Of a DNA stretch of 64,000 nt, positions 5,411 through 64,000 are shown piece after piece (the stretch's first letter is position 1; each line of letters opens with the position of its first letter). This stretch comes from Vicinamibacterales bacterium (GTDB lineage Bacteria; Acidobacteriota; Vicinamibacteria; Vicinamibacterales; JAMQPK01): positions 73,539 to 137,538 of the forward strand of contig CAVSRX010000004.1 of the NCBI GenBank assembly GCA_963730445.1, given 5' to 3'. Made by a program: the position numbers and the translations under genes. The notes under the pieces are model-generated. The model was not told where the DNA came from. It made no database searches and saw only the letters and a program-made list of their open reading frames with translations.

Positions 5411-5493
5411 GGCCAGGGCATTGCCATATTCTCGATTGACGATTGCCACATTGATTGCCGTTGCATTGAGGTGATTCAGGCACAATAGCGGCG

Positions 5494-6736: not shown

Positions 6737-8432
6737 CGCCCATCCCCTGGCCGTCGGCAAGATGCGCGCCTCCAGCGCCCGACAGAGTGACGTAGAACGT
6801 TTCGTCCGATTCGCGTTTCTTGTCGCCCTTCACCGTGACGGTCACCGTCTTCGCGGTCTCTCCTGCGCTGAACGCAAGCGCTCCCGACGCGGCGTTGTAG
6901 TCTTCAACAGACTTCCCGGAGCCGTCCATCGTGGCGAAGTTCACCGTGATGGCGCTATCGGAAGCCGGCGACATGCTGATCGTGAACGCGAACGCCGTCG
7001 AGCCGCCGTTGCCTTCGTTCCTCGAGACATCGCTAATGGTGACGCGCGGCTCGTCGTCCGCGATGGTGAGCAAACCCTGTCCGTCGGCAATCACACCACC
7101 CTGTACCTGACTCAGATTGATGAGAACCGTCTCGTTCGCCTCGCCGATGCGGTCACCGTTTACCGCCACGGAAATCGTTTCGCTGGTTTCACCGGCGTCG
7201 AAGGTGACCGTGCCCGATGCGGACGCGTAATCGCTACCGGCCGTGGCGCTGCCATTGGCCGTGCTATAGGACACGGTCACCGGCTCGCCGGCTGCCCTCG
7301 ACAGCGACAGCGTCACGTTCACCGTGCGTCGTTCCTGCATGCCCCTCGGTGACCATCGCGTCGCCGATGCTGACGACGGGCGTGTGGGAGGCGACGGGCG
7401 TCAGAAGGTACGCGTGATGGCGGCCTTGGGCATCGACGCGGTGCCGACGATCTGGCCGGCGTTGTTGATGCCCGACGCGTACTTGAGGTGCAGACCCGAG
7501 CCCGATGGAATGAGGCTGTTCAGGTTGGTCGCCACGCCGTCGGCGAAGACGTACGCGTGCCAGTTCGAAGGACCGCCCCACGCGCGCATCGTCCCGACGA
7601 CGACGCCGGAATCGTTGATGTCGCCGCCGTAGGCTTCCTTGCTCGGCACCGGCAGCACGTTCATCACGCCGTTCTCATACAGGAAGGCTCTCGAGGTGAT
7701 CTCGTACGTCTCTTTATCCATAAAGCCGGATGTGCCGACGATCTGCCCAACGCTGTTGATCGCAGTCGCGCCGCTGTCTTCCATACCGGGCGCCACGCCC
7801 AGATCGATGATGGCGCCGTCCTGCCAGAGAGTGGCATGCGGCATGTTGACCTGCGGCGTGCACGACGCCCCGACGATGCGGCCCGAGTCGTCGATATCCT
7901 GCGCGTGCGAGCATCCGCCGCCAAGGTCTCCCAGCAGGGTCAGCACGCCGTTCTGCCAGTGAAAGCCCTTCCAGTTGTCGATACTGCCGACGACCTGGCC
8001 GATATCGTTGACGCCGTAAGCGACGGCATAATCGCTCGAGGGTGTCAGGTCCGTCGTCGTGCCGCCCGACCACAGGACCGCGTGGTACTTCAAGGCCGAC
8101 GTTTGGGCCCGCCCGACGACATGTCCTGTGTCGCTGATCGCGACGGCTTCGCTGTGATTCCCGCCGATCGTTCCGAGGTCCGTCATCGAGCCGCTACGCC
8201 ACAGAAACGCGCGCAGCCTGGAGGCCGCATTGGTGGCGGAACCGACGATGTCGCCCGCCTCATTGATGTCGAGGGCCTGAGCGCTGGGCCCGCCAAGCGT
8301 TCCCAGATCCGTGAGCACATAGGGCCCGGGCGCATCGGCGGCCTGTGGTGCGTGATGGGTGACGATGTCAGGAATGGCGACAAGCAGGAGCGTTGCGATG
8401 ACAAGCGATAAGCGCAGGTGGAGTTTGTGCAT
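6714..8432 (-). CDS. Secreted HAF-repeat protein with two C-terminal Calx-beta domains, frameshifts near 7435 and 7330
   Basis: Signal peptide, repeated DLGTLGG/AxxINxxGxIVG units; bridging frame VDAQGRHHAYLLTP...VSIGDAMVTEG; Calx-beta motifs TANGSATAGSDY...GTVTFDAGET, TIADDE, IRNDD. Confidence 0.85.
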
Positions 8433-8445
8433 TCCGCATGCGGAG

Positions 8446-8460
8446 GCAATGTTCGTGCCT
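8446..8460 (-). promoter_or_regulatory. Putative sigma54 -24/-12 promoter of the HAF/Calx-beta gene
   Basis: Minus strand AGGCACGAACATTGC, GG-N10-GC, 14 nt above the ATG at 8432. Confidence 0.7.
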
Positions 8461-8560
8461 CTGTATTTGCAGGATTCGGCGCGAATTGTCGGCGACCCGC
8501 GACGTGTCGGGAAAGAAATGATTACGGATTGTGAACGAGCTTACGCGCGGTGTAAGTAAG

Positions 8561-8585
8561 AGGGGCCGGCGAGAAGCCGGCCCCT
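8561..8585 (-). terminator. GC-rich hairpin, probable terminator of the DUF5666 gene
   Basis: AGGGGCCGGC-gagaa-GCCGGCCCCT perfect 10-bp stem 20 nt past the stop; weak U tract. Confidence 0.65.
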
Positions 8586-8605
8586 GGAGTCGCTAGGGTT
8601 TACCG

Positions 8606-9586
8606 TCAGCTGTTACCACCGCCGTTGCCGCGTCCATTTCCGCCGTTTCCATCGCCCGATTTCCCATTGTCGTCGGCGTCGCGCTGAATGTTGACGAGCG
8701 TGGCAAGCGCCGTCCCTACGCCGGTCGGCGTCGCCCGGACGTGAACTCTCACGCCCATGGCGATCTCTTCGCAACGGCCGTTTTTGAAAACCGTCAACGC
8801 GTTCGTCGTCACGGCGACGTTCTTCACCGTGAACAAGCCGCACACGCCGGCGGTGACGAGACCTTCGAGCTCGAGCTTCATCTGTGCGGCGCCATCATCG
8901 TCATCGTCGCCGTCATCGGCGGTCTTGAACTTCACGTCGGTCGCGCGCACGGTGCTGTCCGCCAGGGTCGAGCCCTTCACCTGGACGAGCGCGCCTGGGA
9001 TGACGTTCGCGCACGTGCCTTTCGAGAACTGCGTCGCCGCATCGGTCGTAATCGTCGTGCCGTTGACGACGAACGACGCGCACGTGCCGCTGACGATGGC
9101 CCCTTCGATCTCCACTTTGTTGAGCTTGTCCTTGCGAGACACGCTCTGAAGCGTTGCGGTGCTGCCGCTCACTTCAACGCCAATGCGGAGCTCGTCGCCG
9201 CCGTTTACGCCGGTCACCGTGAGCAGTGCATCTGTGCCTGGACCTGTGAAGCGGAGCTGGATATCGCCGGGAGGAACATTCGTCAGCACGAACGTTCCGT
9301 TCGGCTTGACCGGAGCGGTAATGTCGGTGCCGACAACCGTTACCATGATTCCAGGGCCGACGAGCGAGGCGAAACTGCCGTCGCTCAGGCTGAGCGCTGA
9401 GAGAGCGGCTCCCGTAATCGCTCCGTTAATCGTCGCGCGATTTCCGGTCGTTGGGATTGGCGATTCATTGCTTGACAGTTGGCTCGGCGGGCTCGGCGCC
9501 GAGGGCGACGATGACCCGCATGCGCCTGTGCCGAGTGCAACGGCGACAAGCGACCCAACAATAACAATCGCATTCTTGAAATTCAC
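8606..9586 (-). CDS. Lipoprotein with two DUF5666-like domains
   Basis: GTG at 9586 after GGAGGT RBS; lipobox-like TGAC then Ser/Pro linker; two repeats of VEIEG...FVVNGTTITTDAATQF...G..VxVxG. Confidence 0.75.
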   Translation of the reverse strand: MNFKNAIVIVGSLVAVALGTGACGSSSPSAPSPPSQLSSNESPIPTTGNRATINGAITGAALSALSLSDGSFASLVGPGIMVTVVGTDITAPVKPNGTFVLTNVPPGDIQLRFTGPGTDALLTVTGVNGGDELRIGVEVSGSTATLQSVSRKDKLNKVEIEGAIVSGTCASFVVNGTTITTDAATQFSKGTCANVIPGALVQVKGSTLADSTVRATDVKFKTADDGDDDDDGAAQMKLELEGLVTAGVCGLFTVKNVAVTTNALTVFKNGRCEEIAMGVRVHVRATPTGVGTALATLVNIQRDADDNGKSGDGNGGNGRGNGGGNS

Positions 9587-9627
9587 GCGTGACCTCCGAG
9601 TTGAGCGCACAACGGGCGCGTGGATCT

Positions 9628-9643
9628 AGCAACTGGAGTGCCA
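9628..9643 (-). promoter_or_regulatory. sigma54 -24/-12 promoter of the DUF5666 lipoprotein gene
   Basis: Minus strand TGGCACTCCAGTTGCT, exact TGGCAC-N5-TTGCW consensus, ~40 nt above start. Confidence 0.85.
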
Positions 9644-9796
9644 CGGCGAGTCGGAGAGAGTGGAACGCGTATGATGTTGAAACAAGAAGGTTTAAATGCA
9701 GCCGCTCCGGGGCGGCGCTCGGCCGATCATGGGGTCGAGGCGCGAAATTTTTACCCGGCAGGGTATCTTTGAAACCACGATATACTCCGCCGCCAT

Positions 9797-10318
9797 ATGA
9801 AACGAAGCGCTGTTCTGCTTGCCCTGATCGCCGCGATTGTGGCAGCCGCATATCTTGAGTCGCGCGCGCAGGCGCCGGCACCGGCGCCCGATCCCGCGGA
9901 TCTTGCTGCGGGCATGCGGCTGTATCAGCAGAAGGGCGACTGCAAGGCGTGTCATGGATGGGCGGCGGACGGGGTGAAGAGCGACAGCCAGATGCCCGAC
10001 GGCCCGAGCCTGCGCGACAAGAAGTACACGCGCCAACTGCTGATTCTGACGATCAAATGCGGCCGGCCCAACACGCAGATGCCGGCGTTCGACAAGTTCG
10101 CCTACACCGACGGCCGTTGCTTCATGATGACGGCCGCGGATCTCGAAGAAATATCCCACGCGCATGCCCGATCCGCCGGCCACGCTGCAGCCGCGCGAGA
10201 TCGAGCTGATCGCCGATTTCCTGTTGGCAAAGGTCGTCGGCCAGGGGCCGATGGACCAGGCCAAGTGCGTCGATTCTGGGGCAGCGACGTTGCGGTGTGT
10301 AAAGAACTGAAGAAGTAA
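9797..10318 (+). CDS. Periplasmic monoheme cytochrome c, two compensating frameshifts near 10145 and 10270
   Basis: Signal peptide, CKACH, GPSL, GRPNTQMPAF; alternative frame gives MPDPPATLQPREIELIADFL. Confidence 0.85.
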   Translation: MKRSAVLLALIAAIVAAAYLESRAQAPAPAPDPADLAAGMRLYQQKGDCKACHGWAADGVKSDSQMPDGPSLRDKKYTRQLLILTIKCGRPNTQMPAFDKFAYTDGRCFMMTAADLEEISHAHARSAGHAAAARDRADRRFPVGKGRRPGADGPGQVRRFWGSDVAVCKELKK

Positions 10319-10332
10319 CTACTGAAAGAAAT

Positions 10333-10356
10333 TCTTTGCGTCTTTGCGCCTCTGCG
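10333..10356. repeat. Three tandem octamers between convergent genes
   Basis: TCTTTGCG TCTTTGCG CCTCTGCG. Confidence 0.6.
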
Positions 10357-10366
10357 TCGAAGACAG

Positions 10367-12134
10367 CTAGTTCAGCGCGAACACGAACAGGTAGCTGGAA
10401 TTTTCCAGCTTGTCGAATTTCACCGGGTGCAGGTGCCGGCCGCCGGATCTGCACCGCGAGATACTGCTTCGGCCCGACTGAATACGTCACCGGCGCGCCC
10501 TTCAGCGGCGTGCCGACGTTGAACCGCCACAGCTCTTCGAGCGTTTCGTCGTTGTAGGCGACAATCCAGCCGTCCTGCAGCGCGGTAAACACCACGCCGC
10601 CCGCCGTCGACAGCGTCCCCGAGCGTATCTCGATGTCGGTTACCGCCTTCGCGATCACCTTGTGATTCATGGCGTCGTACGCGGTGATCGATCCGTAGTA
10701 GAGATCGCTCGAATACGTGCGCTTGGTCGTGTTCTTGTCGTCGATGCCGCCGTCGGGCGAGAGAAACGCGACGGTGTGGCCGTTCTGGGAGTAGCAGCCT
10801 TCGGTGCCCACGCCATACGCAATCTTCTTGACCGGGTTATACGATGTCGGCTGATGCGCGATGCCGCCGTGCCAGGTCGGGCAGGTGCGCTTCATCGGAT
10901 CGCCGCGAAGCGCGCGCGCAGCCGGATTGTAGATCTGCACATCGAGCTTCGGATTGTATTCAACGGGCTTGCCGGTCTCGGGATCGAGCCCTTTGGTCCA
11001 GTTCACGTCGTTCACGTACTGGCTGCCCTTGATGAAGCGGCCATTGGTGCGATCGAGGGAATAGTAAAAGCCGTTCCGGCCGAAGTGGCCGACGACCTTG
11101 CGATTCACCTTGTCGATCATCGTGTCGTACAGCATATGCACGCCCACCTCGTCGTAGTCCCACGAGTCGTTCGGCGTGTACTGGAAGTACCACGCGAGCT
11201 TGCCGGTATCGATGTTCAGCGCGACGACGGCGTTGGTGTAGAGGTTGTCGCCGGGGCGCGCCTGCGGATCGTAGGTCGGCACGGGGTTGCCGGTGCCCCA
11301 GATGGTGAGCCGAGTCGCCGGATCGTACGAGCCGGTCTGCCAGATGCCGCCGCCGCCGGTTTTCCAGGCGTTGTTCTTGTCCTTCCAGGTCTCGCTGCCC
11401 GGATCGCCCGGCTTCGGCACGACATACCAGCGCCACAATTCGTCGCCCGTGCGCGCATCGAGCGCCGCAATCCAGCCGCGAGTTCTTCCGTCGCCCGCGC
11501 CGTTCACGACGATGACCTTGCCTTCGGCGGTGATGGGCGCGGTGAAGAATTTTTCGCGGCTGCCGAACTCGTTGGTGACCGCCACCTTCTTGTCCCACAC
11601 GATTTCGCCGTTCGCGCGGTTCACCCCTATGACGCGTCCGTCGGGCAGGTTGGCGATGACGAGGTCTTCCCACAGCGCGATACCGCGCGACCGCGACACG
11701 TTGCCTTCGTGTCCCACGCCGGGGTCGGTCACCCAGACGAGCTCGCCTTTGTTCGGCGCGCGCGCGTCGATTTTGTAGAGGGTGCCCCAACCGTCGGTCG
11801 TGTACATGAACCCGTTGTCGATGAGCGGATTCACTTCGCTCTCCGGGCCGTTCTGACCGACGTCCTGCATGCCGCCGAGCGCCAGCGCCCAGACCATGCG
11901 CAGGTCCTTCACGTTGTCGCGATTGATTTGTGACAGCTTCGAATATCTCGTGGAGGCGTAGTCGCCGTTCATCATGAGCCAGTTCTGCGGCTCATTCTGC
12001 GCGTTGACCAGCCGGTCGCGGTTGACCGTCATCGAGTACTGCCCAACGAGAGTAGCGGCCGTTACAGCCACGACCGACACGCCGCCGATCACGGCGGCAC
12101 CGAACCTCGAGCTCTTCCGCGCGCCTGGTTGCAT
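10367..12134 (-). CDS. PQQ-dependent dehydrogenase (alcohol/methanol superfamily, divergent), frameshift near 10445
   Basis: RYSKLSQINRDNVKDL, GGGIW, WGTGNP, DNLYTNAVVALNIDTGKLAWYFQYTPNDSWDYD; corrected C-terminus ...SYLFVFALN* at 10367; ATG 12134 after GGAG. Confidence 0.9.
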
Positions 12135-12213
12135 TCGCGTCTCCTTGGAGTGATGTGGGATCGTCGCGATACTAAGCCCGCGGCACATCTGGCGCAACCA
12201 CGAATGATGGCCG

Positions 12214-13750
12214 CTAGGCCGATTTGATAGCCAGCGTTTCGGCAGGCAGGTATCGTGAGACGAGGGTCGTGATGGCCCCCGGATTGACGTCCACGAAGCG
12301 GACCCCCGCCCGGTACATGGCAGACGTCTGTGCGCGTGTCGATTCCAGTTGGGCCCACACGACTCGCCCCTCACAGGTAAGGCGGCCGCTCTCGCCTGCA
12401 AGCGCGACGCGCACGCAGCGATTCGGCCGTAGGGCGGTCGGCGACATGATTTGTACGCCCAGCGCGGAGAGATCGACGAGCGTGCTCGTGACCCCGTCGA
12501 TCAACACTTCGACCGCGTCGGTCACCTTCACGCGGCGAGCCTGGCGGCTGACTGCGTATTGATCGGCGTCGTTCCTCTCAGAAGGGGAGCTTGCCGCCTG
12601 TGCCGATCGCTTTGTCTCAACCGGCGACTCGAGATCAATGGAGGATTCAGTGCGGCTCAGGCGCTGGTTCACGCATCCGACCAGAACCTCTGCGATCGTC
12701 TCTGCGATGCGTAAACGATCCACCGGGTGGTCTGACCGGGTTCTGCGCGTACGCCACAGCCATGACGCGCCCGTGCGCCAGCAAGGGCAGCGCTATCGCA
12801 TTCACACGCGGCATCTCCCCTTGCTCTGCCGTGCCGGCGCCAGGCGCCGCTTCCTCTGTCACCGTCGTACGGTACTTGGCGGCCCGTGCTAACGGCGACT
12901 CGCTCTCAAACGAGACGTGCGGCGGGACAGACGCTGAATCGCCACCGCGGCGTCTCCACAGCTTCAAGCCCTTGCCCCTCACGGCAAACACCGCAACCGT
13001 CGCAAAGCTGTCGCTGAGATGCTCGATCAGCGTTGAGAGGAGCTCATCAGTCCTCACACTGCGGAGTTCGTCGAGGCTGTTCTTGAGACTCTCGAACACA
13101 GGATCGCTGCTGCCTTTGGCAGGGGAGGGTTGCGACTGTGCCTGTGCCTCCAGATGGAGCAGCCGTTTTTCCAGCGCACTCACGCGCTCTCCTGACAGGT
13201 GCGCTTCGAGTCTGCACGACTCGGCTTCTGCTTTGGCCAGCACAATCTCCTGGCGGGCAGCGTCCAACTGCATCGTCAGCATGGTCCGCCGCTGAACTTC
13301 TTCTTCAAGGCGCGCGTCGGCGACTTGTCGCATGCGTCCGGTCTGCGCATGTGCCTCTTCGACGGCCGCAATTCGCTTCGCAGCTTCGTCCAGGCTGGCG
13401 GCGAGCTCATCCCGCTTGCCGCGTATCGCGATGATGTCGCGCTCGGTTTCCGCCAGATGTGCCTCGAGCGCCGTGCGCGCGGCGTCAAATTCCGCGCGTG
13501 CGGTTTCAAAATCGGCCTGGAGGCGAGCGCGAACACTGCTCAATTCGGACTGTGCCGCCGCCTCTGCCTGGCCGCGCGCATGCGTGACGGCCGCCTTGAG
13601 CTCTTCAGCCGCCACGGCGTGAATGTCGGCAGTGAGTTGCTCGAGGACCTCGTCGTTACGGGAAACGATATTGCCGAGGGCCGTGCGAAGGTCGGTTGAG
13701 ATTGCAGTACGCCACAGTTCAGTCTGCTGGCGTAGTCGTGATTCAGTCAT
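12214..13750 (-). CDS. Coiled-coil protein with C-terminal PilZ domain, frameshift near 12720
   Basis: Long Ala/Glu/Arg heptad region, GAF-like middle (IALPLLAHGRVMAVAYA), PilZ motifs RQARR and DLSALG, GRVVW, AGVRF. Confidence 0.75.
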
Positions 13751-13791
13751 GGGGCGCTCAGAGGCGGAAGGCAATCACGATTGCCTGCTTG

Positions 13792-13806
13792 GCAATCCGC
13801 ATGCCG
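13792..13806 (-). promoter_or_regulatory. Putative sigma54 -24/-12 promoter of the PilZ gene
   Basis: Minus strand CGGCATGCGGATTGC, GG-N10-GC, ~40 nt above ATG 13750; palindrome GGCAATC-AC-GATTGCC at 13770-13785 just downstream. Confidence 0.65.
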
Positions 13807-13910
13807 TTTGCGATCGGCTGCAACTGCTTGATTGTGCAGCAGTGGCCTTGCCGATTCGTGCGGAGGATGATCGAAAAGTGGAATTTGTGCTTGCAGAATT
13901 GTCAGGCCAA

Positions 13911-15251
13911 TCAGAACGCCAGGCGCCGATGAAACTCCCGTCTGAGCAGCAAAAGGTTCATGCCGAGCTGCAGAATCGTCGCGCCGACCGACAAATACCA
14001 CACCCAGCGGAGCTCGAAGCCCGGCATGCGCGACAGCAGGATCGCCGGAATCGCGACGATCAGGATGCGGGTGAACGACGCGATGACCGGAGGAATCGTG
14101 TTGCCCATCGCCTGGAACATGCTGCCGTTCACGTAGATGATCCCCGATGCCACCGTGCCCCAGGCGATGATGCGCAGGTATTCGGCGCCGACCGCAATGA
14201 CGGCGGCGTCTGAAGAGAAGAACCGGATCATCGGCTCGTCGGCGAACAGGCAGGCGGCCGTGACGAGCCCCGTCACGCCGGTCACCATCAGTACCGCTTG
14301 CTTGAATGTTTCCCTCACCCGGTCGCCTTTGCGCGCGCCGAAATTCTGTCCCGCAACCGGTGCCGCGGCGAAGCCAAGCGCGACGATCGGCATGAATCCA
14401 GCCTGGATGATGCGCTGCCCGATGCCAAACCCCGCCTGCCCGGCCGCACCAAACGGCCGGCTCACCGTGTAGACGACGAACAGATACACCGCGATGAAGG
14501 CGAACTCAACGCCCGCCGGCAATCCGATCTTCAGGACCTGCCACCACATGCCGGCGTGCGGCCGGAAGTGCGGATGCAACTTCAGGTACGACGCGGATTC
14601 GAAGAAATAAAACGCCAGCCAGAACGTGCCGATGATAATCGCGATGAATGACGCCAGGCCGGCCCCCGCAACGCCCATTGGCGCCGTGCCGAGCCAGCCG
14701 AACATGAGCGCCGGCGCGAGCACGATGTTGATGATCACCGTCGCCGTCTGCACCACCATGCCCGGTTTGAAGTTGCCGGTGCCGCGCAGCGCCGCGCCCA
14801 TCACCACCATCGGAAACTGAAGCGCCATCGCGGGAATGAACCAGGAGAGATAGGCCGTCGCGGCCGCTGCGCTCACGACGTCAGGGCTCAGCGATCCCAC
14901 GTACCACTCGCGCAGCGCCGTCACGATAATCAGGAACAGGGCGCCGATGAAGGCCGCCAGCAGCAGCGACTGCGTCAGCACCTGCTGCGCCTGCTCGCGC
15001 TCTTTGCGCCCCGCCGCATGCGAGATGAGCGTCGTCGTGCCCACCGCAAGCATCTGCGTGATGGCGAGGACGATGAATGTGAGATTGCCCGCGATGCCGA
15101 CGCCGGCAATGGCTTCTTTCCCGAGGCGGCCGACCCAGTAGAGGTCGACGAGGAAGTACAGCGTCTGAAAGACCATCGTCACCAGCATGAAGCCGGTGGT
15201 TTTCAGAAGATGGCGTGAAATGCTGCCGGTAGTGAGATCCTCCACGTGCAC
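13911..15251 (-). CDS. MATE-family efflux transporter
   Basis: 446 aa, DLTTGSI start, VDLYWVGRLG, NIVLAPALMFG, GAGLAS, GQNFGA; ~12 TM. Confidence 0.93.
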   Translation of the reverse strand: MHVEDLTTGSISRHLLKTTGFMLVTMVFQTLYFLVDLYWVGRLGKEAIAGVGIAGNLTFIVLAITQMLAVGTTTLISHAAGRKEREQAQQVLTQSLLLAAFIGALFLIIVTALREWYVGSLSPDVVSAAAATAYLSWFIPAMALQFPMVVMGAALRGTGNFKPGMVVQTATVIINIVLAPALMFGWLGTAPMGVAGAGLASFIAIIIGTFWLAFYFFESASYLKLHPHFRPHAGMWWQVLKIGLPAGVEFAFIAVYLFVVYTVSRPFGAAGQAGFGIGQRIIQAGFMPIVALGFAAAPVAGQNFGARKGDRVRETFKQAVLMVTGVTGLVTAACLFADEPMIRFFSSDAAVIAVGAEYLRIIAWGTVASGIIYVNGSMFQAMGNTIPPVIASFTRILIVAIPAILLSRMPGFELRWVWYLSVGATILQLGMNLLLLRREFHRRLAF

Positions 15252-15354
15252 ATAGTGTATAACCCTTGCGGTTTCTGGTTTTTGGTTTCTGCGGTCGGCA
15301 CGTATTCAGTTCAGGTTTGTCACGGGCAGTAACGGTCGATTGGAGTAGTTGGAG

Positions 15355-15882
15355 CTACGCCATGCCGGGGTAGTGCTTTTCGCTGCACGACGGGCAGATG
15401 CCGTGGGAGAACTCTGCCTCCGATCGCCGCGAGATGTAGGCTTCCATCCGTTCCCAGTCGCCCTTGTCGTTGCGGATGTTCTTGCAGAACGCGCAGATCG
15501 GGAGCAGCCCTTCGAGCACTTTCAGCCGGCGCTGCAGTGCGCGCTCGAACTCGGCGAGGCGCGCGAACCAGAGCGCCAGAAAGATAATCACCACACCGCG
15601 AAACGCGGTCGCCAGCGCGAGTCCCGCCACGTTCTCCGATGCAATATTCGGCATGACGAGGAACAACAGGCGAAACACCGGCACCGCGATCGCTAAGCCC
15701 ACTGCGGACCACATGCCCGAGTACCACGCGGCCAGAATGACGGGCAATACGTACACGACTGGAAAATTCACCGCCTCGGAGGTGAGGTAATCGATCCAGA
15801 GCATCGCCGCGCCGAGCGCCACCCACCACAGCGGTTGAATGCGGCCCGACGGAAGCAGCCACCACGGACGCGTCGTCGTCAT
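15355..15882 (-). CDS. Small membrane protein with C-terminal CxxC...HGICPxC domain
   Basis: Four TM segments then GLLPICAFCKNIRND..WE..EAYIS...FSHGICPSC. Confidence 0.8.
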   Translation of the reverse strand: MTTTRPWWLLPSGRIQPLWWVALGAAMLWIDYLTSEAVNFPVVYVLPVILAAWYSGMWSAVGLAIAVPVFRLLFLVMPNIASENVAGLALATAFRGVVIIFLALWFARLAEFERALQRRLKVLEGLLPICAFCKNIRNDKGDWERMEAYISRRSEAEFSHGICPSCSEKHYPGMA

Positions 15883-15925
15883 TACTGCGTCAGTATCTCA
15901 TGCGCGACGGGCGTAGAATGCGCCG

Positions 15926-16564
15926 ATGCTCCGCACATCGCGGCAGGTTGTGATCGTCGGAGTCAGCTTGCTGCTTGCGGCGGCGATGGGTCTCTTCGTC
16001 GTCCGTTCCAAATCTGATACCGCTACGCTCGCTTTCTGGTTCGAAAGCATTAGTGAAGATGCGATGAAGACGCTGCCCGACAGATTGGCTGGTGGTATTT
16101 CGCCAGACGACATGAAGACGATTGAGAAAATCTCGCGTGATGAGATTGTTCGTGCGTTTCGTCAGTATCCCATTTCGATCGTTGGCCGCACCGCCGGGCT
16201 GTATCACGTGCGCGTCGTTGACAGTCTCAACAGCGCGGGAGGTGGTTCCGCGGAATCCCACGTGTTTCCAGGACTCGGGGGCCAGGGGTTTATCAACTTC
16301 CGAAATCTCGCGCACGGCGCAATTGCGTATGCGCCGGCAGACGCCGATCGGCAGGAGATCGTCGCTGCGATCGGTCGCGGAATCGGCCGCACCGCCGTTC
16401 ATGAATTTACGCATCAGCTCCTCGGCAGGCATGCCCGCATAGACGACTCAAAGGACATGCAGAGCTACGAACACGGCTCCGCGAATCGGCGCGAACAGTA
16501 CTACGGCGAGATGCGCTGGGATATCGCAGCGCCGATGCTGAAGCAGAAATTCGGATTGAAGTAG
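15926..16564 (+). CDS. Exported hypothetical protein, possible zincin metallopeptidase
   Basis: N-terminal hydrophobic anchor; TAVHEFTHQLLG HExxH motif. Confidence 0.6.
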   Translation: MLRTSRQVVIVGVSLLLAAAMGLFVVRSKSDTATLAFWFESISEDAMKTLPDRLAGGISPDDMKTIEKISRDEIVRAFRQYPISIVGRTAGLYHVRVVDSLNSAGGGSAESHVFPGLGGQGFINFRNLAHGAIAYAPADADRQEIVAAIGRGIGRTAVHEFTHQLLGRHARIDDSKDMQSYEHGSANRREQYYGEMRWDIAAPMLKQKFGLK

Positions 16565-16570
16565 CGGCAG

Positions 16571-16631
16571 GTCCGCCTAAAGGCAGACACTACCGATGTG
16601 CACCGTCGGCCGACCTGAAGGTCGGCACTAC
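16571..16631. repeat. Pair of GTAG-family REP-like palindromes
   Basis: GTCCGCCTAAAGGCAGAC-ACTAC (16571-16593) and GCCGACCTGAAGGTCGGC-ACTAC (16609-16631), each a hairpin followed by CTAC. Confidence 0.75.
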
Positions 16632-16669
16632 GTACTGCTGTCAGCGGCCGGGAGCGCCGGTGAAACAAA

Positions 16670-17547
16670 CTATTTCGGCTGTCCGTATGCTTCCGACGTA
16701 CCGACCGTAAACTTTTTGTAATTCGAGAATTCTGAAATGCCGCGGAGCCGCAGCCGCCGGACGAGCAGCAGCCGGCCGCTCGCGATCCAGGTCACCTTCG
16801 CGGGCAGCCACACCTCGTTGTTCACCTTGCGCCGCTCGAACGTGGCAATCGTGCCCTTGTGCACGCGGGCGAGCAGGCCCATGCCGAACGACAAATCGCG
16901 AATCGCCTCGATCTCGATGCGCACCAGCTCGTAATCCGTTTCACTGATCCACGCCCGCGCCTTGAAGTTGCGCATGATCTTTCCGTCGTCGGTCTGCGGC
17001 TTCACACTGTCTTTCGGATCCAGCGTGGCGAGGATCGTGACGTGTCCGTCGATCGGCTCGCGGCGAATCATGCGGATGTCGTAAATGCGAAACAGGTCGT
17101 CGATGGCCGCGTTGGTTCGGCGGCGGGCCTGTTCGCGTTCGCGCGCCGCTTTCTGCCGCTGCGGCTCCGAGGCCTGCGACTTTACGTATGCGTCGACATC
17201 TTCCTTCCGCTCGCGATCCTGCCGTGCGAGCTGGTCGGCCGCCACCCGCTGGCCGTTCTCTTCGATGAGCCGCCGGTATCGCTCCTGGCCGGGCAGCCCG
17301 GGATAGATCTCGTATGTCTTCACGGTCTCGCTCGTTTGGACGGCCGGAGCTGTCGACCTTCTGCTCGGTGCGGCGCTCGACGTAGACGTAGCCGCTCTGG
17401 CGCTCCTCGTCGGTCGCCAGGTGTTTTCGCACCTGCGGCAGAGAAGGTGTTGAAGTCGGGGAGGGGCTTGCCCTGAGCCGCGTCGAAGGGGCGCTCCTGC
17501 GCCAGAGGGGCAGCGACCAGCACCAGGGCGATCACCAAAGGGCGCAT
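16670..17547 (-). CDS. Exported hypothetical protein, frameshifts near 17435 and 17340
   Basis: Signal peptide MRPLVIALVLVAAPLAQ; three frames join to RKHLATDEERQSGYVYVERRTE...YRRLIEENG...AWISETDYELVRIE...EVWLP...FSNYKKF. Confidence 0.75.
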
Positions 17548-56063: not shown

Positions 56064-56780
56064 TAGTCGGCGTGAGGCGGTATAGGCCGAGATGCCCGCG
56101 GATTCATCGGCAGCACGTGGCTCTCCGGTTCCTTCTTTTTGAACCAGTCGGCGAGTCGCATGATGACGCCGCGCTTTTCGGGCAGAATATCCTGCAGTTG
56201 AAGGAGCACCTCGATAGCTTCCTCGAGACGATGGACGACACCGACGCCGCGCTCGGTGGCCTGCTGTTCGAGCGCCGTGTCGCCGATCTGAAGCAGAAGA
56301 ATCGCCTTCGTCTGTGAGGCGCCGACCACCTCGAGACAATTCAGAAACTGATCGTCGATGACGACATCGAGGCGCAGGGCATTGGCAATCTCGCCGCGCG
56401 AGCCCGGAACGGTCACGACCGCCGGCATGTAGAAGCCGTAGGCCTCGAGCCACGCCTGGCTCTGGAACTGCACCGAGTCTCCGGCTGTGGGAATGCGCGA
56501 GGTGAGAAACGACACCTCCCACCGATAGCGTCGTGCGAGCTGGTAGAGACGCGCGATCTGCGCGGGCTCGTACGGCGCGAGCCCCAGCCACCAGTTCGGT
56601 GTCTCGGTGATCACGCGCCAGACGCGCTTCGCGTCGGCGGCAGACACGGCGTCGAAATCCGGCATTGGCGCCGAAGGACGGCTGAATGGCGTCCTTTCCC
56701 AGCAGCTTGGCGGCCGCGTCGAGAAATGCCGTTCGAAAATCCGCAACCACGCCATCGAGATCGAAACCGATTCGAAGCAT
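56063..56780 (-). CDS. HAD-superfamily hydrolase (NT5C-like), frameshift near 56690
   Basis: MLRIGFDLDGVVADF motif I, FLTSR motif II, VIDD motif IV. Confidence 0.8.
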
Positions 56781-58170
56781 TATTGGTTGCGCATCCCTCG
56801 CGGCTCTGCGGAGCCGCACGTGGCGATACCCGCAAGCATGGCGAACAGCAGCGCGTTAGCCGGCATCGTCAACCCGGTTTCCCAGATGCTCTGCACCATG
56901 ACGCCCGCCATGCCCGCGCATGCGCCGGCCCTGATGAGATAGTTCGATGACAAATCCTGTTTGAGGCTGCGACCAGCCAGCACGAGGAAGAGCCCCGCTG
57001 CGAGCGCCGCCGGCAGCAGAAGCCACGCGCCTCCTTCAGCCATCAATTGCAGGTAGTGGTTGTGAGCTTGGTCGATAGCATAGCCGGGTTCCGCCGTCTG
57101 GTAAACGTTGATGGCCTTGCCAAATGTGCCGGCGCCGGTGCCGGTCACGGGAAAATCCTCGATCGAGCCTGGACGGCGTCGCCCCAGATGGCCACGCGTC
57201 CGCGTCCTTCCTGCGCGCGCGTGATCGATTCATCGACCCGCCGCAGCAGCATGTCGTAGTTGGCGAACCACAGCACGACCAGCGCGAGCAGCGCGAACTG
57301 GAAGATCACCCAGCGTCGCACTGCCAGCGTCGCCGCGCCGCCGTGTCAGCACCGTGCTGAGCAGCGAAGGCGCTCATCAACCCGATCAGCCCCGATCGCG
57401 AGGCCGAGAGCATGACGGCCAGCGTCATGACGCACACAGCGACCACGAGCCAGATGCGTATCGTTCCCAGCTGCTTCAGCGCATTCGCGACCCGTTGCGA
57501 AAAATGATGCGGAGATTCTTTGCGCGGCGCCCGGGCCAGCAGATAGCCGAAGGCGAGCGGGCACGCCATGATGATCCACGTCGCCATGTGATTGCGGTTG
57601 ACGAACGGGCCGTACGGGCCGCGCGCCGGTATCGAGCGGGCGCCACACGCCGTACAACATATCGATTCGCTGCGCGCGCTGGACGATGGCGGCGACCGAT
57701 GCGATGAGGCCGATGAACGCGATGACGCGCACGATGCGTCCGGTGCCTCCTTCTTCGCACACCTGCCGGCACATCCAGAACATGAGGATCGCGGACAGCG
57801 AAGATGCCAACCGCTGCGAGCGTGTCGATCGGCGCGATGCTGATCGGAATCCAGGGGAGATTGGATGGCGGTCACGAGCGGCGGCAGCCACAGCGCGGTC
57901 CTCACCGCAATCGCCTGCGGATCGAACACCCGGATCAGCGCGGCCGGCATCGGCACGAGCTGAACAAGGCACGCGACCACGACGGCTATCAACGTGAGGT
58001 CGAGTGACGCGGAAACGCTTGTCGCGGACGACGTCGGGCCGCAAGGCGAGCGCCAGCCCGAGGAGCAGGCTCGCCGCGGGCACCCAGACCCATGGGTAGA
58101 CACCTCCGGCGAGGAACGTGGCCCACGCGAGCACCACCGCCAACCACGTCGCGGCTGGAGGGTAGGACGC
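56780..58170 (-). CDS. O-antigen ligase family membrane protein, several frameshifts; start uncertain
   Basis: GGVYPW, GPFVNRNH, SASRSG, GTGAGTF, AHNHYLQLMAEGG. Confidence 0.82.
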
Positions 58171-58171
58171 G

Positions 58172-60433
58172 CTACGCCGCGTTCGATCGGACGTAGTAGT
58201 TCTTGTACTTGTAGCCGTAGTAGCGCGAGTAATAGTACTTGTTGCGGACGATGTCAACCCGGTTGAGCACCGCGCCGAGCATGTGCGGGCGGCTCGTCAT
58301 GCAGCGTTTCAACCGCGCGCTCCGCAAGCCTGCGCTGCGTCATCTCGGAGCCGATGATGAACACCACGCCCGACACCCAGGGCGCGATGATCACGGCGTC
58401 GGTGACGGCGAGCACGGGCGGCGTGTCGATGAGGACCCAGTCGAACGGACCGCTCTGCACGTTGCTGATGAGCGTCTTCATGCGGTCCGACGCGAGAAGC
58501 TCGGATGGGTTCGGCGGCGTCATGCCCGCGGTCATCACCCACAGGTTCTGCACGCTCGTCCGCCGGATGGTCTGACGCGCGGTCGCCTGACCGGTCAGCA
58601 GGTGCGACAGGCCGATCGTGTTCTCGATGCCCAGCGTGCGCGACACGCTCGGCCGGCGCATGTCGGCGTCGATGAGCAGCACGCGCGAGCCGCCGTACGC
58701 CAGCGCGATCGCCATGTTGCACGCCGTCGTCGTCTTGCCTTCGAGCGGCTGCGCGCTGGTGAGCGCAATGACGCGCGTGCCTTCGCTGCCGCTGCTGAAC
58801 ACGAGCGACGTGCGGAGGGCGCGGAACGCTTCGCCGAATTCGTGCGGCACTTCCTGCGACAGCAGCGGGTGATTGTTGCCCTTCACCGCGGGCACGAGAC
58901 CCAGGAAGGGCAGCTTCAGGCGGCGCGTGATGTCTTCAGGCGTCTTCACCGTATCGTCGAGGTAGTCGATCGCCAGCACCAGCCCGAGCGCCAGCAGGAT
59001 GCCCGCGAGCGCGCCCAGCATGAAGTTGCGGCGGATGTCTGGTGTAAACGGAGAGCCCGGCACGACCGCGCGGTCCATCAGGCGCACGTTGTTGCCGCCG
59101 CTGTTGCTGACAATCTGCAGCTCGTTCTGCCGCTGGATCAGCGAGTCGTAAATCTGCCGGTTGCTCTGCGCTTCGCGCTCGAGCACGGTATAGCCCACGC
59201 TCTTGCGGCTGAGATCCATCGCCGCGCCTTCAGACTGCTTGAGGGCTTCGCCGAGGCGCCGTTCTGTCGCCAGCGCTCCCTCGTATTCGTTTCGGATCTG
59301 CTGCACCGCCGCGACGCAGCGCCGCCTGATACTGCTTGTTCGTGTCGGCGATCGCGTTCTCGTTTTCGATGACCTGCGGGTGCTTCGGAAGGTAGCGCTC
59401 GTTGAGCTGCACTTTCTGGCGCTGCAGCTCGGCCATCCGCGTGCGGAGGGTCGTGACCGTGGCGTTCGAATTCACCGCAGGCGCATCGGCCAGCTGTGCC
59501 GGCGACAGCGACCTGATCTGGTTGTACATCGCTTCTTTCTGGATGCGCTCGGTGCGCGTCCGCGTGTACTGGTCGTTCACCTGCGTGAGGTTGGCGACCA
59601 CCGTGTTCTGCCGGTCTTCGAGCGACAGCGCGTTGTTCGTTTCGCGATACTCCGCCATCGCGCGCTCGCTGGCTTCGACCTTCGCCTGCTGTTTCTTGAT
59701 TTCGTCGGCGAGGAACTGCAGGCTCTTGGCGGTTGCCTCGGTGCGCCGCTCGAAGTTCTGCTTGACGTACTCTTCGACGAGCACGTCGGCGGCTTTGGCC
59801 GCAAACACGGGATCGGCCGACTGCACCGATACGTTGTAGAGCCGGCTGCCGCGCACGGGATCGATTGAGACCGCGCCGAGGAAATTGTTGACGAGCGCGT
59901 CGGCGTCTCTGGTGGCGCGCGCCGATGGCAGCATCGGAGGTGTGCCGCCGGTGGCCCGCGCCATCGCGCCCTGCGCCTGCCGCTTCATCGTGTCGAGCAC
60001 CGAGGCCAGGCCGGTCCGTTGCGGGCCCTGGCCGTTGAACTCGGGTACGGCGGCGAGGTTGAGCCGCGCCACTACCTTCGTCGCGAGCTCGCGGCCGTTC
60101 AGAATGCGAATCTGCGTCTGGTAGTACGGTTCGGGGTCGGAAATGTATTCGTTGTTCGTCGCAGTGTTGAATCCGGCGACCGATGCCGACGCGTTCGTCC
60201 TCGATGAGCACGCTCGTGGTCGCGCGGTACATCGGCGTCGTCGTGAAGGTGCGCACCGCCACGGCAAGCAGGACGAGGAGAAATACGGTGACGACAACGT
60301 AGCGATATTTGTAGATGGCGTTGACGCGATCGAGGATGTGCGTATCCGAATCGGTAGGAAACAGACCTTTACCGACGGCACGTTGCGGCGCCTTTGCCGT
60401 TGCGGGAGCTGCTGGTCTCTCGTTCTGGGCCAT
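58172..60433 (-). CDS. wzc: Polysaccharide co-polymerase / BY-kinase (Wzc), frameshifts near 60190, 59315 and 58300
   Basis: Wzz-like N-terminus, YLPKHP, EAFRALRTSL, SAQPLEGKTT, IDADMRRP, PPNPSELL, DTPP, Tyr cluster NKYYYSRYYGYKYKNYY. Confidence 0.92.
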
Positions 60434-60498
60434 CGCTATCGTGATTATCTGCTCGTAACTATCGGCAGAGTGTCTCCGGCGCAACAGAGACGCCAGAC

Positions 60499-62128: not shown

Positions 62129-62901
62129 GCTCGAACCTGCGCTCGCGCGCGTACGATGTTCTGAGGCGCGCCAAAGGCCCATCGCGGTGGCGAGCCGCGT
62201 GCCTGTACTTCGGGGCCGGGTTACTGACGGTCAGTGATTTTCGTCCTTCAAATGTCGCCAGGTGGGAGGCATACGACGACGAAAATCCCGGGCTGGTGAC
62301 GTGGGAAGACCAGGCGTACCGAACCGTGATGCGGTTGTCAGACCGTGTGCTTCTCATCGGCTGCGGCACCGGGCGCGATCTGCTCGCCTTACGACAGCTC
62401 GGGTACGACGTGACAGGACTCGAGCAATCCACTGCGCTCGCCGATCAGGCGCGAGCGACGCTTTCCCACCATGGGCTGCCGACCGAGGTTATTCCCAAGG
62501 CGATTGAGTCGTACACCTCACGCGACGCGTTCGACGTCATCGTCTTCTCGCCCTATACCTATTCCTATATTCTCGGCATGGCATCACGCGTGGCAATTCT
62601 GAAGAGGCTGCGCGAATGCTTGTCACCTCAGGGGAGGGTGATCATCAGCTACCCGGCTTTGATACGGCAGTCCTCACTGTGGATCTTCCTTGCGCGTGTC
62701 AGCAGCGTGTGTGTCGGCAGCGACTGGTGGCCGGAGGCCGGAGATCGTTTGTACGGGCCGCCGTCGCTTCCGAAAGCGCTGGGTTTCGAACATCAGTTTT
62801 CACCTGACGAGCTGGCGCGCGAGTGTGAGATGGCAGGCCTTGATATCGTTCGTGACGAATCGATCAGTTCGTATTTCCGGTTTGCCGTTGTCACCGTCTG
62901 A
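62125..62901 (+). CDS. Class I SAM-dependent methyltransferase
   Basis: VLLIGCGTGRD, FDVIVF, LSPQGRVIIS; ATGA overlap with thrB. Confidence 0.82.
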   Translation: MSSNLRSRAYDVLRRAKGPSRWRAACLYFGAGLLTVSDFRPSNVARWEAYDDENPGLVTWEDQAYRTVMRLSDRVLLIGCGTGRDLLALRQLGYDVTGLEQSTALADQARATLSHHGLPTEVIPKAIESYTSRDAFDVIVFSPYTYSYILGMASRVAILKRLRECLSPQGRVIISYPALIRQSSLWIFLARVSSVCVGSDWWPEAGDRLYGPPSLPKALGFEHQFSPDELARECEMAGLDIVRDESISSYFRFAVVTV

Positions 62902-63835
62902 GAACGGCGGTGTCGGCAATCACCGCGTTGCACACGTCATCCAGGCGCGACAATCTGCGTGGATAGGCGAGCCTGCGCAGGGGCACGTCCCGAACCAGCC
63001 GGGTCGCGGTGTTGAACTGACTTGTCAATCGCGTGCGATCCACGCGAATCAGATTGAATGCCGCCCGCGTGATTTCAAGAAAGGCCTTCTCGCCTTCGAG
63101 CGCCGTGATGCCGATTCGCGCGGCGCGCCGTCCGGGTCTGGGCAGAACGTACAGCGCTCTGAGGGGAATCGGACGACTGCTCGCCTCCGTCCCTCTGAGG
63201 GGTAGGAGGAGCTTCGACGTACCTGCGTTGAGGTGCATCCCGTCGGCGCGCGCGAGTATCTTCCGCGCCGCGGACGGAAACAGCTTCAGGCGGGGAGGTC
63301 CTGCATGCGCAAACCAGCGCCCGTCACGCACCTCCAACGCGAGGATATCGTCGGTGAGAATTGGGAACCCCCGTGCGAGAAACGCGGCCCCGAGTGTCGA
63401 CTTTCCATACCCGCAGTCGCCGAGAAACGCGACCGCTTCACCGTCGATCACCACCGCCGTCGCGTGCAGGGGCTCACTTCCGCGCGACAACAGCGAGAAC
63501 GACAGGACTTGTCCGAGCAGGTACGTCGTGAGCGATTCGTCTGTGGCACCGTCGAGGGCGAGGTATTCGATCGTGCGTGCGTCGGCCGAGATCAGGAATT
63601 CGAAGAGGCCGGACCACTTAAGGTAAGTAGCGCCGCCTCGAAGACGGTGGCATTCGAACCACTGCGGTTTCGAGGGAGGACGAAGCAGCCTGCGCGCGTT
63701 CTCGAACCGGCGCGCCACGCCCGGCCGCAGCCGGACGTCCGTTGGTGCTCCTCTGCTTGCCGTCGGACACGAGAGGGGCATTGCGGCTTCCAAGACGAGA
63801 CCGTAGACACGGTATCGCCTGGCGGTCGCGCTCAC
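62891..63835 (-). CDS. HPr kinase-related P-loop kinase, putative RiPP (lasso peptide) kinase
   Basis: YRVYGL start, LHATAV, GDCGYGKST Walker A, LTDD; GTGA overlap with upstream precursor peptide. Confidence 0.85.
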   Translation of the reverse strand: MSATARRYRVYGLVLEAAMPLSCPTASRGAPTDVRLRPGVARRFENARRLLRPPSKPQWFECHRLRGGATYLKWSGLFEFLISADARTIEYLALDGATDESLTTYLLGQVLSFSLLSRGSEPLHATAVVIDGEAVAFLGDCGYGKSTLGAAFLARGFPILTDDILALEVRDGRWFAHAGPPRLKLFPSAARKILARADGMHLNAGTSKLLLPLRGTEASSRPIPLRALYVLPRPGRRAARIGITALEGEKAFLEITRAAFNLIRVDRTRLTSQFNTATRLVRDVPLRRLAYPRRLSRLDDVCNAVIADTAVLRR

Positions 63836-63993
63836 GCGTTTGCGCCGGTCGTCTTTGTCTTGGGCTTGCCGGTGCCGTCGGCGCTTGCTCCGCCCTTGGC
63901 CGCCGTGAGTTTCCGGAAGTCTCCGTGAACTTTCAGCGCCGGTGCACGGTACGGGCGTTTCACCGAAGCCCGCGGTTCAATTTTGCGCTTCAT
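63832..63993 (-). CDS. Lasso-type RiPP precursor peptide (53 aa; not in the ORF track)
   Basis: Hand translation: MKRKIEPRASVKRPYRAPALKVHGDFRKLTA-AKGGASADGTGKPKTKTTGANA*; leader YxxPxLxxxGxxxxxTx, core Ala1 and Asp8. Confidence 0.88.
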   Translation of the reverse strand: MKRKIEPRASVKRPYRAPALKVHGDFRKLTAAKGGASADGTGKPKTKTTGANA

Positions 63994-64000
63994 GAACACT

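What the first reader, a model, noticed from the sequence alone, without database searches (positions are those of the whole stretch)
63832..63993. Unannotated lasso-type RiPP precursor with an atypical Lys/Thr/Gly-rich core
Seen: a 53-codon minus-strand ORF below the track cut-off, MKRKIEPRASVKRPYRAPALKVHGDFRKLTA|AKGGASADGTGKPKTKTTGANA. Established: YxxPxL...G...T(-2) is the lasso leader signature (RRE binding and B2 cleavage), and ring closure uses an Asp/Glu at core position 7-9; here Ala1-Asp8 is the only possibility. Inference: a 22-aa core with an 8-residue ring, net positive charge, no aromatic or large hydrophobic residue in the tail, so only Lys (and Pro) could hold a threaded fold. 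I do not recognise this core as a characterised peptide.
Basis: partly seen in the sequence, partly recalled or inferred. Interest (0 to 1): 0.9.

Follow-up and report, generated by a model that had tools for sequence, protein, structure and literature searches.

The report
Lasso peptide precursor, kinase-type cluster
This small gene encodes the precursor of a lasso-type ribosomal peptide in a soil Acidobacteriota genome, sitting in a known kind of gene cluster (cyclase, chaperone, kinase, sugar-adding enzyme) that here has lost its own leader-cutting protease.

Summary
The 53-codon minus-strand ORF (window 63832-63993) is real. It passes NCBIfam's curated lasso-leader model and has 59 metagenomic homologs with invariant Y/P/L/G/T(-2) and Asp8. 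It is translationally coupled between an Asn-synthetase-like cyclase (upstream, mostly beyond the window) and an HprK-like kinase (downstream). A PqqD/RRE (B1) and an NTP_transf_5 nucleotidyltransferase (N) lie divergently upstream. This is the known paeninodin/pseudomycoidin-type "phosphorylated lasso" architecture, here in Vicinamibacterales. The apparent frameshifts in the cyclase and N genes are single-base assembly insertions; independent short-read contigs lack them. A 401-bp deletion that removes the B2 leader peptidase is real, bridged by contigs from four studies. One divergent B2 lies on another contig beside a tRNA-Ser, and a model docks it on B1 plus leader (0.71; best control 0.01). 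The core family is uncharacterised: K2, G4, D8, G9, K12, P13, T15 and K/R16 are invariant, a C-terminal Ser is rare (7 of 59), and the tail usually has no bulky plug. I infer phosphorylation, possibly with hexose, at Thr15.

The parts
63832..63993 (-). Lasso precursor gene A: 31-aa leader (YRAPAL...G...T-2) plus 22-aa core AKGGASADGTGKPKTKTTGANA
   Evidence: ORF; NF033521 23.2 bits, cut-off 19; 59 homologs, invariant positions; covered by contigs X1 record 2 and X2 records 10 and 11
63977..64000 (-). 3' end of the lasso cyclase gene C (Asn-synthetase-like). The rest lies beyond the window at L002 1978-3911 (-). Its stop overlaps the precursor start by 17 nt.
   Evidence: The two apparent frameshifts at L002 3395/3396 and 3620/3622 are single-base insertions of the assembly.
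62891..63835 (-). HprK-like precursor kinase K (314 aa). Its GTG start overlaps the precursor's TGA stop (GTGA).
   Evidence: ORF; TIGR04352 40 bits, below cut-off 200; Hpr_kinase_C 18.4 bits, below cut-off 33.3; HprK structures, E 0.003; motif H124-x14-G-x2-G-x-GKS-x15-DD, same spacing as the BsfK motif in PMC10368454
62125..62901 (+). SAM-dependent methyltransferase, convergent with K; possible tailoring enzyme (uncertain)
   Evidence: weak hits only; daptide-type RiPP MTase 42.9 bits, cut-off 175; a homolog lies within 17 kb of the cluster in 8 of 15 loci, directly beside B1 in G005 and G024.

Best explanation
The ORF is the precursor gene (A) of a lasso peptide in a kinase-type lasso cluster of a Vicinamibacterales (Acidobacteriota) genome.

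Shown:
- The operon C-A-K is translationally coupled. B1 and N lie divergently upstream.
- The family is conserved across the genus in the order K<-A<-C | B1->B2->N.
- In this species a 401-bp deletion has removed B2 cleanly.
- A divergent B2 lies elsewhere in the genome.

Inferred mechanism:
1. B1 binds the YxxPxL leader.
2. K, helped by B1, phosphorylates the linear precursor. The most likely site is the only invariant core hydroxyl, Thr15. N may then add hexose to the phosphate.
3. The leader is cut after Ala(-1), either by the unlinked B2 acting in trans or by a host peptidase.
4. The cyclase joins the Ala1 amine to the Asp8 side chain, giving an 8-residue ring.
5. The bulky phospho(glyco)syl group and/or Lys/Arg16 holds the tail in place of the missing bulky plug residues.
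For: Precursor:
- It passes the NF033521 curated cut-off.
- In 59 homologs, Y-17, P-14, L-12, G-8 and T-2 are invariant; D8, G9, K12, P13, T15 and K/R16 are present in 58 of 58 full-length cores.

Cyclase:
- Pfam Asn_synthase scores 130 bits.
- The best NCBIfam model is the lasso isopeptide cyclase NF033535: 167 bits for the G000 fragment and 352 bits for an intact relative.

B1:
- Pfam PqqD scores 70 bits, above its cut-off.
- NCBIfam lasso_PqqD_Bac scores 77.9 bits.

Kinase and N:
- The kinase motif has the same spacing as characterised BsfK (passages of PMC10368454).
- N matches NTP_transf_5 at 103 bits and has a DTD motif, as PsmN has D134/D136 (PMC6993621 passages).

Synteny and integrity:
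- The gene order is shared by 14 relatives' loci.
- The three frameshifts are absent from independent contigs: 3395/3396 in X1, X2, X3; 3620/3622 in X1, X4; 4990 in X1, X2, X3.
- The B2-less junction L002 4227|4228 is bridged without gaps by contigs of four runs from four studies.
- Cyclase SNPs are 15 synonymous to 3 non-synonymous among the 40 differences shown.

Unlinked B2:
- It passes NF033537 (81.9 bits, cut-off 33) and keeps Cys73 and His106.
- The complex model of B1 + precursor + this B2 scored 0.71, against 0.01 for the best of 3 controls. That mark was reached by 58 of 80 solved complexes and 2 of 110 mismatched pairs. Runs agreed in at least 79% of contacts, and the partner's pLDDT was at least 84. 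Thr(-2) touches Cys73/Leu74/His106. This is a textbook pair type, so the pass may reflect likeness only.
Against: - No product, mass or transcript was observed.
- B2 is absent from the locus. The deletion also removed N's native ATG, so N would need a TTG 38 codons upstream.
- The cyclase and B1 scores lie below NCBIfam's curated cut-offs for these exception-type models (352 of 525; 77.9 of 80).
- The kinase is below the cut-offs of all named HprK families.
- Kinase SNPs are 7 synonymous to 11 non-synonymous, including a stop-to-Trp change, which hints at relaxed constraint.
- Known lasso kinases act on a C-terminal Ser or on ring Ser3 (PMC8498205, PMC10368454). This core ends in Ala and has Gly at position 3, so the Thr15 site is a guess from conservation alone.
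- No ABC exporter was seen among the ORFs scanned at the locus.
Confidence: 0.8

Rival explanations
1. The cluster in this species is a relic. Losing B2, and N's start codon with it, ended production. The precursor gene is intact only because too little time has passed for it to decay.
For: The 401-bp B2 deletion is real. N's native ATG is gone. Kinase SNPs are 7 synonymous to 11 non-synonymous, and the stop codon is lost in two runs' contigs. The unlinked B2 is only 25-41% identical to the cluster B2s of relatives and has no close ortholog in the 24 genus genomes searched (best 43%).
Against: After removing the assembly errors, C, A, K, B1 and N are all open. The cyclase shows 15 synonymous to 3 non-synonymous SNPs. 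The same B2-less junction occurs in contigs from four studies, so the form persists in nature. Pseudomycoidin was made without B1/B2 in two hosts (PMC6993621 passages). The model docks the unlinked B2 on B1 plus leader.
Confidence: 0.15
2. The product is not a threaded lasso. It is either a branched-cyclic peptide or a linear phosphorylated peptide in the manner of the LPP family.
For: 35 of 59 cores have no bulky residue in the tail. Unmodified pseudomycoidin is not threaded (PMC6993621, section heading and passages). A K+N+RRE module makes linear phosphorylated peptides in Bacillota (PMC13381572 passages).
Against: A cyclase is present, coupled to the precursor and under purifying selection. 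Asp8 is invariant. The leader has YxxP rather than the WxxP of LPP leaders, and no SpI-like peptidase was seen at the locus (PMC13381572 section titles and passages).
Confidence: 0.12
3. The ORF is a chance open frame in high-GC DNA and not a gene.
For: The region is full of spurious long ORFs.
Against: It passes a curated model. It has 59 homologs whose variation is confined to core positions 5-7, 10, 14 and the far tail. It has a Shine-Dalgarno site and overlapping start/stop coupling, and conserved synteny.
Confidence: 0.01

Closest known systems
Pseudomycoidin cluster (psmC-A-K-B1-B2-N-D) of Bacillus pseudomycoides (PMC6993621)
   Same: It has a cyclase, a precursor and an HprK-like kinase in that order, a discrete B1, and an uncharacterised NTP transferase. 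Core residue 1 is Ala and the tail has no bulky plug. B1/B2 were shown to be dispensable there, and the authors proposed hexose-phosphate as a lock.
   Different: It comes from a different phylum. Pseudomycoidin is modified on its C-terminal Ser; here the core ends in Ala, and a C-terminal Ser occurs in only 7 of 59 homologs. No D exporter was seen here. B2 is physically deleted here rather than merely dispensable.
Paeninodin-type and proteobacterial phosphorylated lasso peptides (PadeK, ThcoK, SyanK; review PMC8498205)
   Same: An HprK-like kinase acts on the linear precursor before cyclisation, and B1/B2 are split.
   Different: Those kinases need a C-terminal Ser, which is absent here.
Bsf cluster of Bradymonas sediminis (BsfK; PMC10368454)
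   Same: The kinase motif H-x14-G-x2-G-x-GKS-x15-DD has identical spacing. It shows that a lasso kinase can phosphorylate an internal residue and is accelerated by B1.
   Different: BsfK targets ring Ser3, and the Bsf leader has Ile at -2. Here position 3 is Gly (52 of 59) and the leader has Thr(-2) (59 of 59).
LPP family of Bacillota (PMC13381572)
   Same: It has the same RRE + HprK-like kinase + NTP transferase module.
   Different: LPP lacks a cyclase and B2, uses an SpI-like peptidase and has a WxxP leader. Here a cyclase and a YxxP leader are present.

Membership tests
Lasso peptide biosynthetic cluster | Precursor leader with YxxPxL...T(-2) | tested here: met
   NF033521 23.2 bits, cut-off 19. 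Y, P, L and T(-2) are invariant in 59 of 59 homologs.
Lasso peptide biosynthetic cluster | Asp/Glu at core position 7-9 for the isopeptide ring | tested here: met
   Asp8 in 58 of 58 full-length homologs; it is the only acidic residue in 47 of 59 cores.
Lasso peptide biosynthetic cluster | Asn-synthetase-like macrolactam cyclase beside the precursor | tested here: met
   Asn_synthase 130 bits. The best NCBIfam hit is the lasso cyclase NF033535, though below its cut-off. The gene is open once the assembly insertions are discounted. It overlaps the precursor by 17 nt.
Lasso peptide biosynthetic cluster | PqqD-like RRE (B1) | tested here: met
   PF05402 70 bits, cut-off 23.4. lasso_PqqD_Bac 77.9 bits, cut-off 80.
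Lasso peptide biosynthetic cluster | Transglutaminase-like leader peptidase (B2) in the cluster | tested here: not met
   There is no PF13471 hit at the locus. A 401-bp deletion relative to G019 removes it, and four runs bridge the junction. One B2 that passes NF033537 (81.9 bits, cut-off 33) lies on contig C20.
Lasso peptide biosynthetic cluster | Threaded macrolactam product | not testable with these tools
   Needs MS, NMR or unthreading assays.
Phosphorylated lasso peptides (paeninodin/pseudomycoidin type) | HprK-like kinase with the conserved H...G..G.GKS...DD motif | tested here: met
   the motif is as given in PMC10368454 (passage read).
Phosphorylated lasso peptides (paeninodin/pseudomycoidin type) | C-terminal Ser as phosphate acceptor | tested here: not met
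   This core ends in Ala. A C-terminal Ser occurs in 7 of 59 homologs.
Phosphorylated lasso peptides (paeninodin/pseudomycoidin type) | PsmN-like NTP transferase | tested here: met
   PF14907: 103 bits in G000, 111-115 bits in relatives. DTD motif. The C-terminal frameshift is an assembly error. The native start codon was lost with the deletion.
Phosphorylated lasso peptides (paeninodin/pseudomycoidin type) | ABC exporter D in the cluster | tested here: inconclusive
   None of the 10 ORFs of L002 scanned with Pfam is a transporter. Smaller or more distant ORFs were not scanned.
NCBIfam TIGR04352 HprK-related kinase A | Score at or above the curated cut-off of 200 bits | tested here: not met
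   40 bits.
LPP linear phosphorylated peptides | WxxP leader, SpI-like peptidase, no cyclase | tested here: not met
   The leader is YRAP, a cyclase is present and no SpI-like gene was seen among the scanned ORFs. Features are as in the PMC13381572 passages.

The most novel reading that the evidence does not exclude
This Vicinamibacterales family makes a lasso peptide whose tail is locked not by a bulky amino acid but by a phosphate, or phospho-hexose, installed by K and N on an internal tail residue, the invariant Thr15. That would be a third regiochemistry for lasso kinases, after the C-terminal Ser and ring Ser3. This species would also show that such a pathway persists in nature after losing its dedicated B2, using an unlinked, horizontally acquired B2 or a housekeeping peptidase.
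Probability: 0.25. Interest if true: 0.7.

Novelty: new member of a known kind. Interest (0 to 1): 0.45.

Why it matters
Lasso peptides of Acidobacteriota are numerous in soil metagenomes but none has been characterised. PMC8692599 (passages read) reports that they are divergent from the reference clusters in MIBiG. This family offers three things:

- A highly conserved cationic Gly/Lys/Thr core with a clear candidate modification site.
- A direct test of the proposal that a post-translational group can serve as the steric lock.
- A natural experiment on whether the B2 leader peptidase is dispensable or can be supplied in trans.

The case also shows that long-read MAG frameshifts can make an intact biosynthetic cluster look like a pseudogene.

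Tried and rejected
- **Pseudogenised cyclase and N.** The cyclase read in three frames and N had a garbled C-terminus. I rejected this because contigs of independent runs lack one base at each of the three sites. The neighbouring gltB and a MacB-like gene are split in the same assembly.
- **B2 gap as an assembly artefact.** Rejected: four contigs bridge the junction.
- **A second B2 candidate on C11** (23.9 bits). It is a 551-aa generic transglutaminase-like protein, not a lasso B2.
- **The ~1.7-kb insert between B1 and B2 in G020/G021-type loci.** It gave no Pfam or NCBIfam hit and remains unexplained.
- **Solved-structure search with the kinase.** It gave only weak P-loop matches to HprK (E 0.003).
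- **Literature on Vicinamibacterales lasso peptides.** 19 papers held both words. Of the 12 listed I opened only PMC8692599; most of the other listed titles do not concern lasso peptides. I found no paper describing this core family. The library lacks most subscription journals, and supplements, including the precursor lists of PMC10368454, could not be seen and may hold related Acidobacteriaceae precursors.
- **The search for related loci with the precursor alignment.** It returned only 2 loci, both already known as G020 and G019, so it added names only.
- **SNP counts.** They use only the 40 differences displayed of 109. The contigs bearing them are not proven to be the same molecules that carry the deletion.

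Full report
**Observation.** An AAGGGAG ribosome-binding site lies 5 nt before its ATG. The peptide scores 23.2 bits on NCBIfam NF033521 (lasso_leader_L3, curated cut-off 19). It also has weaker hits to two lasso-peptide subfamily models.

**Surroundings.** The window is G000:C4:73539-137538. I fetched 17 kb across its end as L002, where L002 position = window position minus 61999.

On the minus strand three genes are coupled:
- An Asn-synthetase-like gene at L002 1978-3911 (Pfam Asn_synthase 130 bits plus GATase pieces). Its stop lies 17 nt inside the precursor ORF.
- The precursor.
- A 314-aa ORF at window 62891-63835, whose GTG start overlaps the precursor's TGA stop.

The 314-aa protein is distantly HprK-like. 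It scores 40 bits on TIGR04352 and 18.4 bits on Hpr_kinase_C, both below their cut-offs, and matches PDB HprK chains at E 0.003. It carries H124-x14-G-x2-G-x-GKS-x15-DD. That is the same motif, with the same spacing, that PMC10368454 reports for BsfK and other lasso precursor kinases (passage read).

Divergently upstream lie:
- A 100-aa PqqD/RRE protein at L002 3935-4237 (PF05402 70 bits; lasso_PqqD_Bac 77.9 bits against a cut-off of 80).
- An NTP_transf_5 protein (PF14907, 103 bits) with a DTD motif.

The cyclase's best NCBIfam model is the lasso isopeptide cyclase NF033535. It scores 167 bits for the G000 fragment and 352 bits for an intact relative, against a cut-off of 525. The flanks are housekeeping genes: a nitrite/sulfite reductase and glutamate synthase on one side, and on the other a methyltransferase followed by a 312-aa ORF that I recall looks like a homoserine kinase but did not scan.

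**Family.** Clear homologs of the precursor occur in 12 of 24 other genomes of the same genus at E<1e-3, and in at least one genome of another family, G040. tblastn maps of 14 relatives' loci show the conserved order K<-A<-C | B1->B2->N next to the same reductase gene. With my divergent B2 query, a B2 was found in 12 of the 14 loci. Two of the relatives are named Vicinamibacterales MAGs.

The large protein collection holds 59 homologs, all unnamed or labelled 'hypothetical protein'. In their alignment:
- Y-17, P-14, L-12, G-8, F-6, R-5, L-3 and T-2 are invariant.
- Core K2 and G4 are invariant in 59 of 59.
- D8, G9, K12, P13, T15 and K/R16 are present in all 58 full-length sequences.
- Positions 5-7, 10, 14 and the last six residues vary.
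- Asp8 is the only acidic residue in 47 of 59 cores.
- 35 of 59 tails have none of F, W, Y, H, R, L, I or M.
- Only 7 of 59 end in Ser.

**Are the genes intact?** In the assembly the cyclase reads in three frames and N has an out-of-frame C-terminus. I laid Logan contigs of four soil or sediment runs from four studies on L002 800-5400.

| Site (L002) | Gene | Runs whose covering contigs lack one base there |
|---|---|---|
| 3395/3396 | cyclase | X1, X2, X3 |
| 3620/3622 | cyclase | X1, X4 |
| 4990 | N | X1, X2, X3 |

The frameshifts are therefore single-base insertions of the assembly. This is consistent with split gltB and MacB-like genes elsewhere in the same assembly. One of the runs may be the sample of origin, but four studies agree.

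**The missing B2.** blastn against the closest relative, G019, gives two collinear blocks that leave out 401 bp of G019, namely its B2 gene.
- The junction at L002 4227|4228 fuses B1 to the last three codons of B2, so B1 ends ...RDALG. It also removes N's native ATG.
- Contigs X1 record 6, X2 record 14, X3 record 22 and X4 record 32 bridge the junction without gaps. The deletion is real and recurrent in nature.
- A whole-genome scan with PF13471 finds one good B2, on contig C20 (77.8 bits). It is 132 aa and scores 81.9 bits on NF033537 against a cut-off of 33.
- That B2 sits beside a tRNA-Ser(CGA) gene and unrelated neighbours. No PqqD or cyclase gene is nearby.
- It keeps Cys73 and His106. 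It is 25-41% identical to the relatives' B2s, and it has no close ortholog in the 24 genus genomes searched (best 43%).
- A three-chain model of B1, precursor and this B2 scored 0.71 against 0.01 for the best of three controls. That mark was reached by 58 of 80 solved complexes and 2 of 110 mismatched pairs. Runs agreed in at least 79% of contacts, and the partner's pLDDT was at least 84. The leader's Thr(-2) was placed on Cys73/Leu74/His106. B1-B2-leader is a textbook arrangement, so this shows compatibility by likeness, not binding.

**Selection.** Of the 40 displayed differences (of 109) between the assembly and the laid contigs:

| Gene | Synonymous | Non-synonymous |
|---|---|---|
| Cyclase | 15 | 3 |
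| Kinase | 7 | 11 (one turns its stop into Trp) |
| N | 2 | 2 |

The cyclase is clearly constrained. The kinase's C-terminal half looks looser.

**Mechanism.**
- Shown: the gene content, the coupling, the conservation, the deletion and the intactness of the genes.
- From the literature: HprK-like kinases phosphorylate linear lasso precursors, either on a C-terminal Ser (paeninodin, ThcoK, SyanK, PsmK; PMC8498205 and PMC6993621 passages) or on ring Ser3 with help from B1 (BsfK; PMC10368454 abstract and passages). PsmN adds one or two hexoses to the phosphate. Pseudomycoidin lacks a bulky plug, is not threaded without modification, and is made without B1/B2 in E. coli and B. subtilis. Its authors proposed the phospho-hexose as a lock (PMC6993621 passages).
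- Inferred here: B1 binds the YRAPAL leader. K phosphorylates Thr15, the only invariant hydroxyl of the core, and N may extend the phosphate. The leader is removed after Ala(-1) by the unlinked B2 or by a host protease. The cyclase closes Ala1-Asp8. The appended group and/or Lys16 retains the tail.

**Comparison with known systems.** This is the kinase-type, paeninodin/pseudomycoidin-like lasso architecture. It differs in four ways: it lacks the C-terminal Ser acceptor, its core is uncharacterised, it has no visible exporter, and in this species B2 has been deleted. It is not an LPP system, which has a WxxP leader, an SpI peptidase and no cyclase (PMC13381572 passages). It is not a member of TIGR04352. 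Acidobacteriota lasso clusters are reported as numerous and divergent from reference clusters (PMC8692599 passages). I found no description of this core family, but supplements were closed and subscription journals are not in the library.

**Verdict.** It is a new member of a known kind, and the B2 loss and the likely new modification site give it moderate interest (0.45).

Noticed in passing
L002 7219-11559 (+) and L013 7055-10059 (-): The glutamate synthase large-subunit gene and a MacB/FtsX-type permease gene are each split into overlapping ORFs in different frames. This fits frequent single-base indel errors in this assembly.
   Followed up: partly
L043 (G017:C3) 8585-10660 (-); also L024: In relative G017 the cyclase frame runs on without a stop into the precursor (849-aa open frame). 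This is either a natural cyclase-precursor fusion or an assembly error.
   Followed up: no
L034 (G019:C11) 8163-8303 (-): The precursor of the closest relative diverges after ...GKPKTK and runs on for about 40 more residues. Its cyclase is also in several frames. These are probably indel errors of that MAG too.
   Followed up: no
L037 10665-12260 (+) and L035 4690-6090 (-): G020/G021-type clusters carry about 1.7 kb between B1 and B2, with a roughly 550-aa open frame that has no Pfam or NCBIfam hit.
   Followed up: partly
L045 (G006:C138) 3705-17409: G006 has two K-A-C lasso sets flanking the same reductase gene, each with its own short-form precursor ending in ...PATRK.
   Followed up: no
L013 10324-10414 (-) and 10529-10927 (+): The unlinked B2 gene lies 115 bp from a tRNA-Ser(CGA) gene, a typical insertion hotspot. 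It has no close ortholog in the genus genomes searched, which suggests horizontal acquisition or a remnant of another cluster.
   Followed up: partly
window 62891-62893 (L002 892): Contigs of runs X1 and X4 read TGG instead of the kinase's TGA stop. In those variants the kinase is longer and runs further into the convergent methyltransferase gene.
   Followed up: no
window 56780-60484 (-): A polysaccharide locus lies upstream in the window. It has a chain-length-determinant/tyrosine-kinase-like ORF with a P-loop and long ORFs that look like membrane proteins. This was read from the ORF translations only.
   Followed up: no
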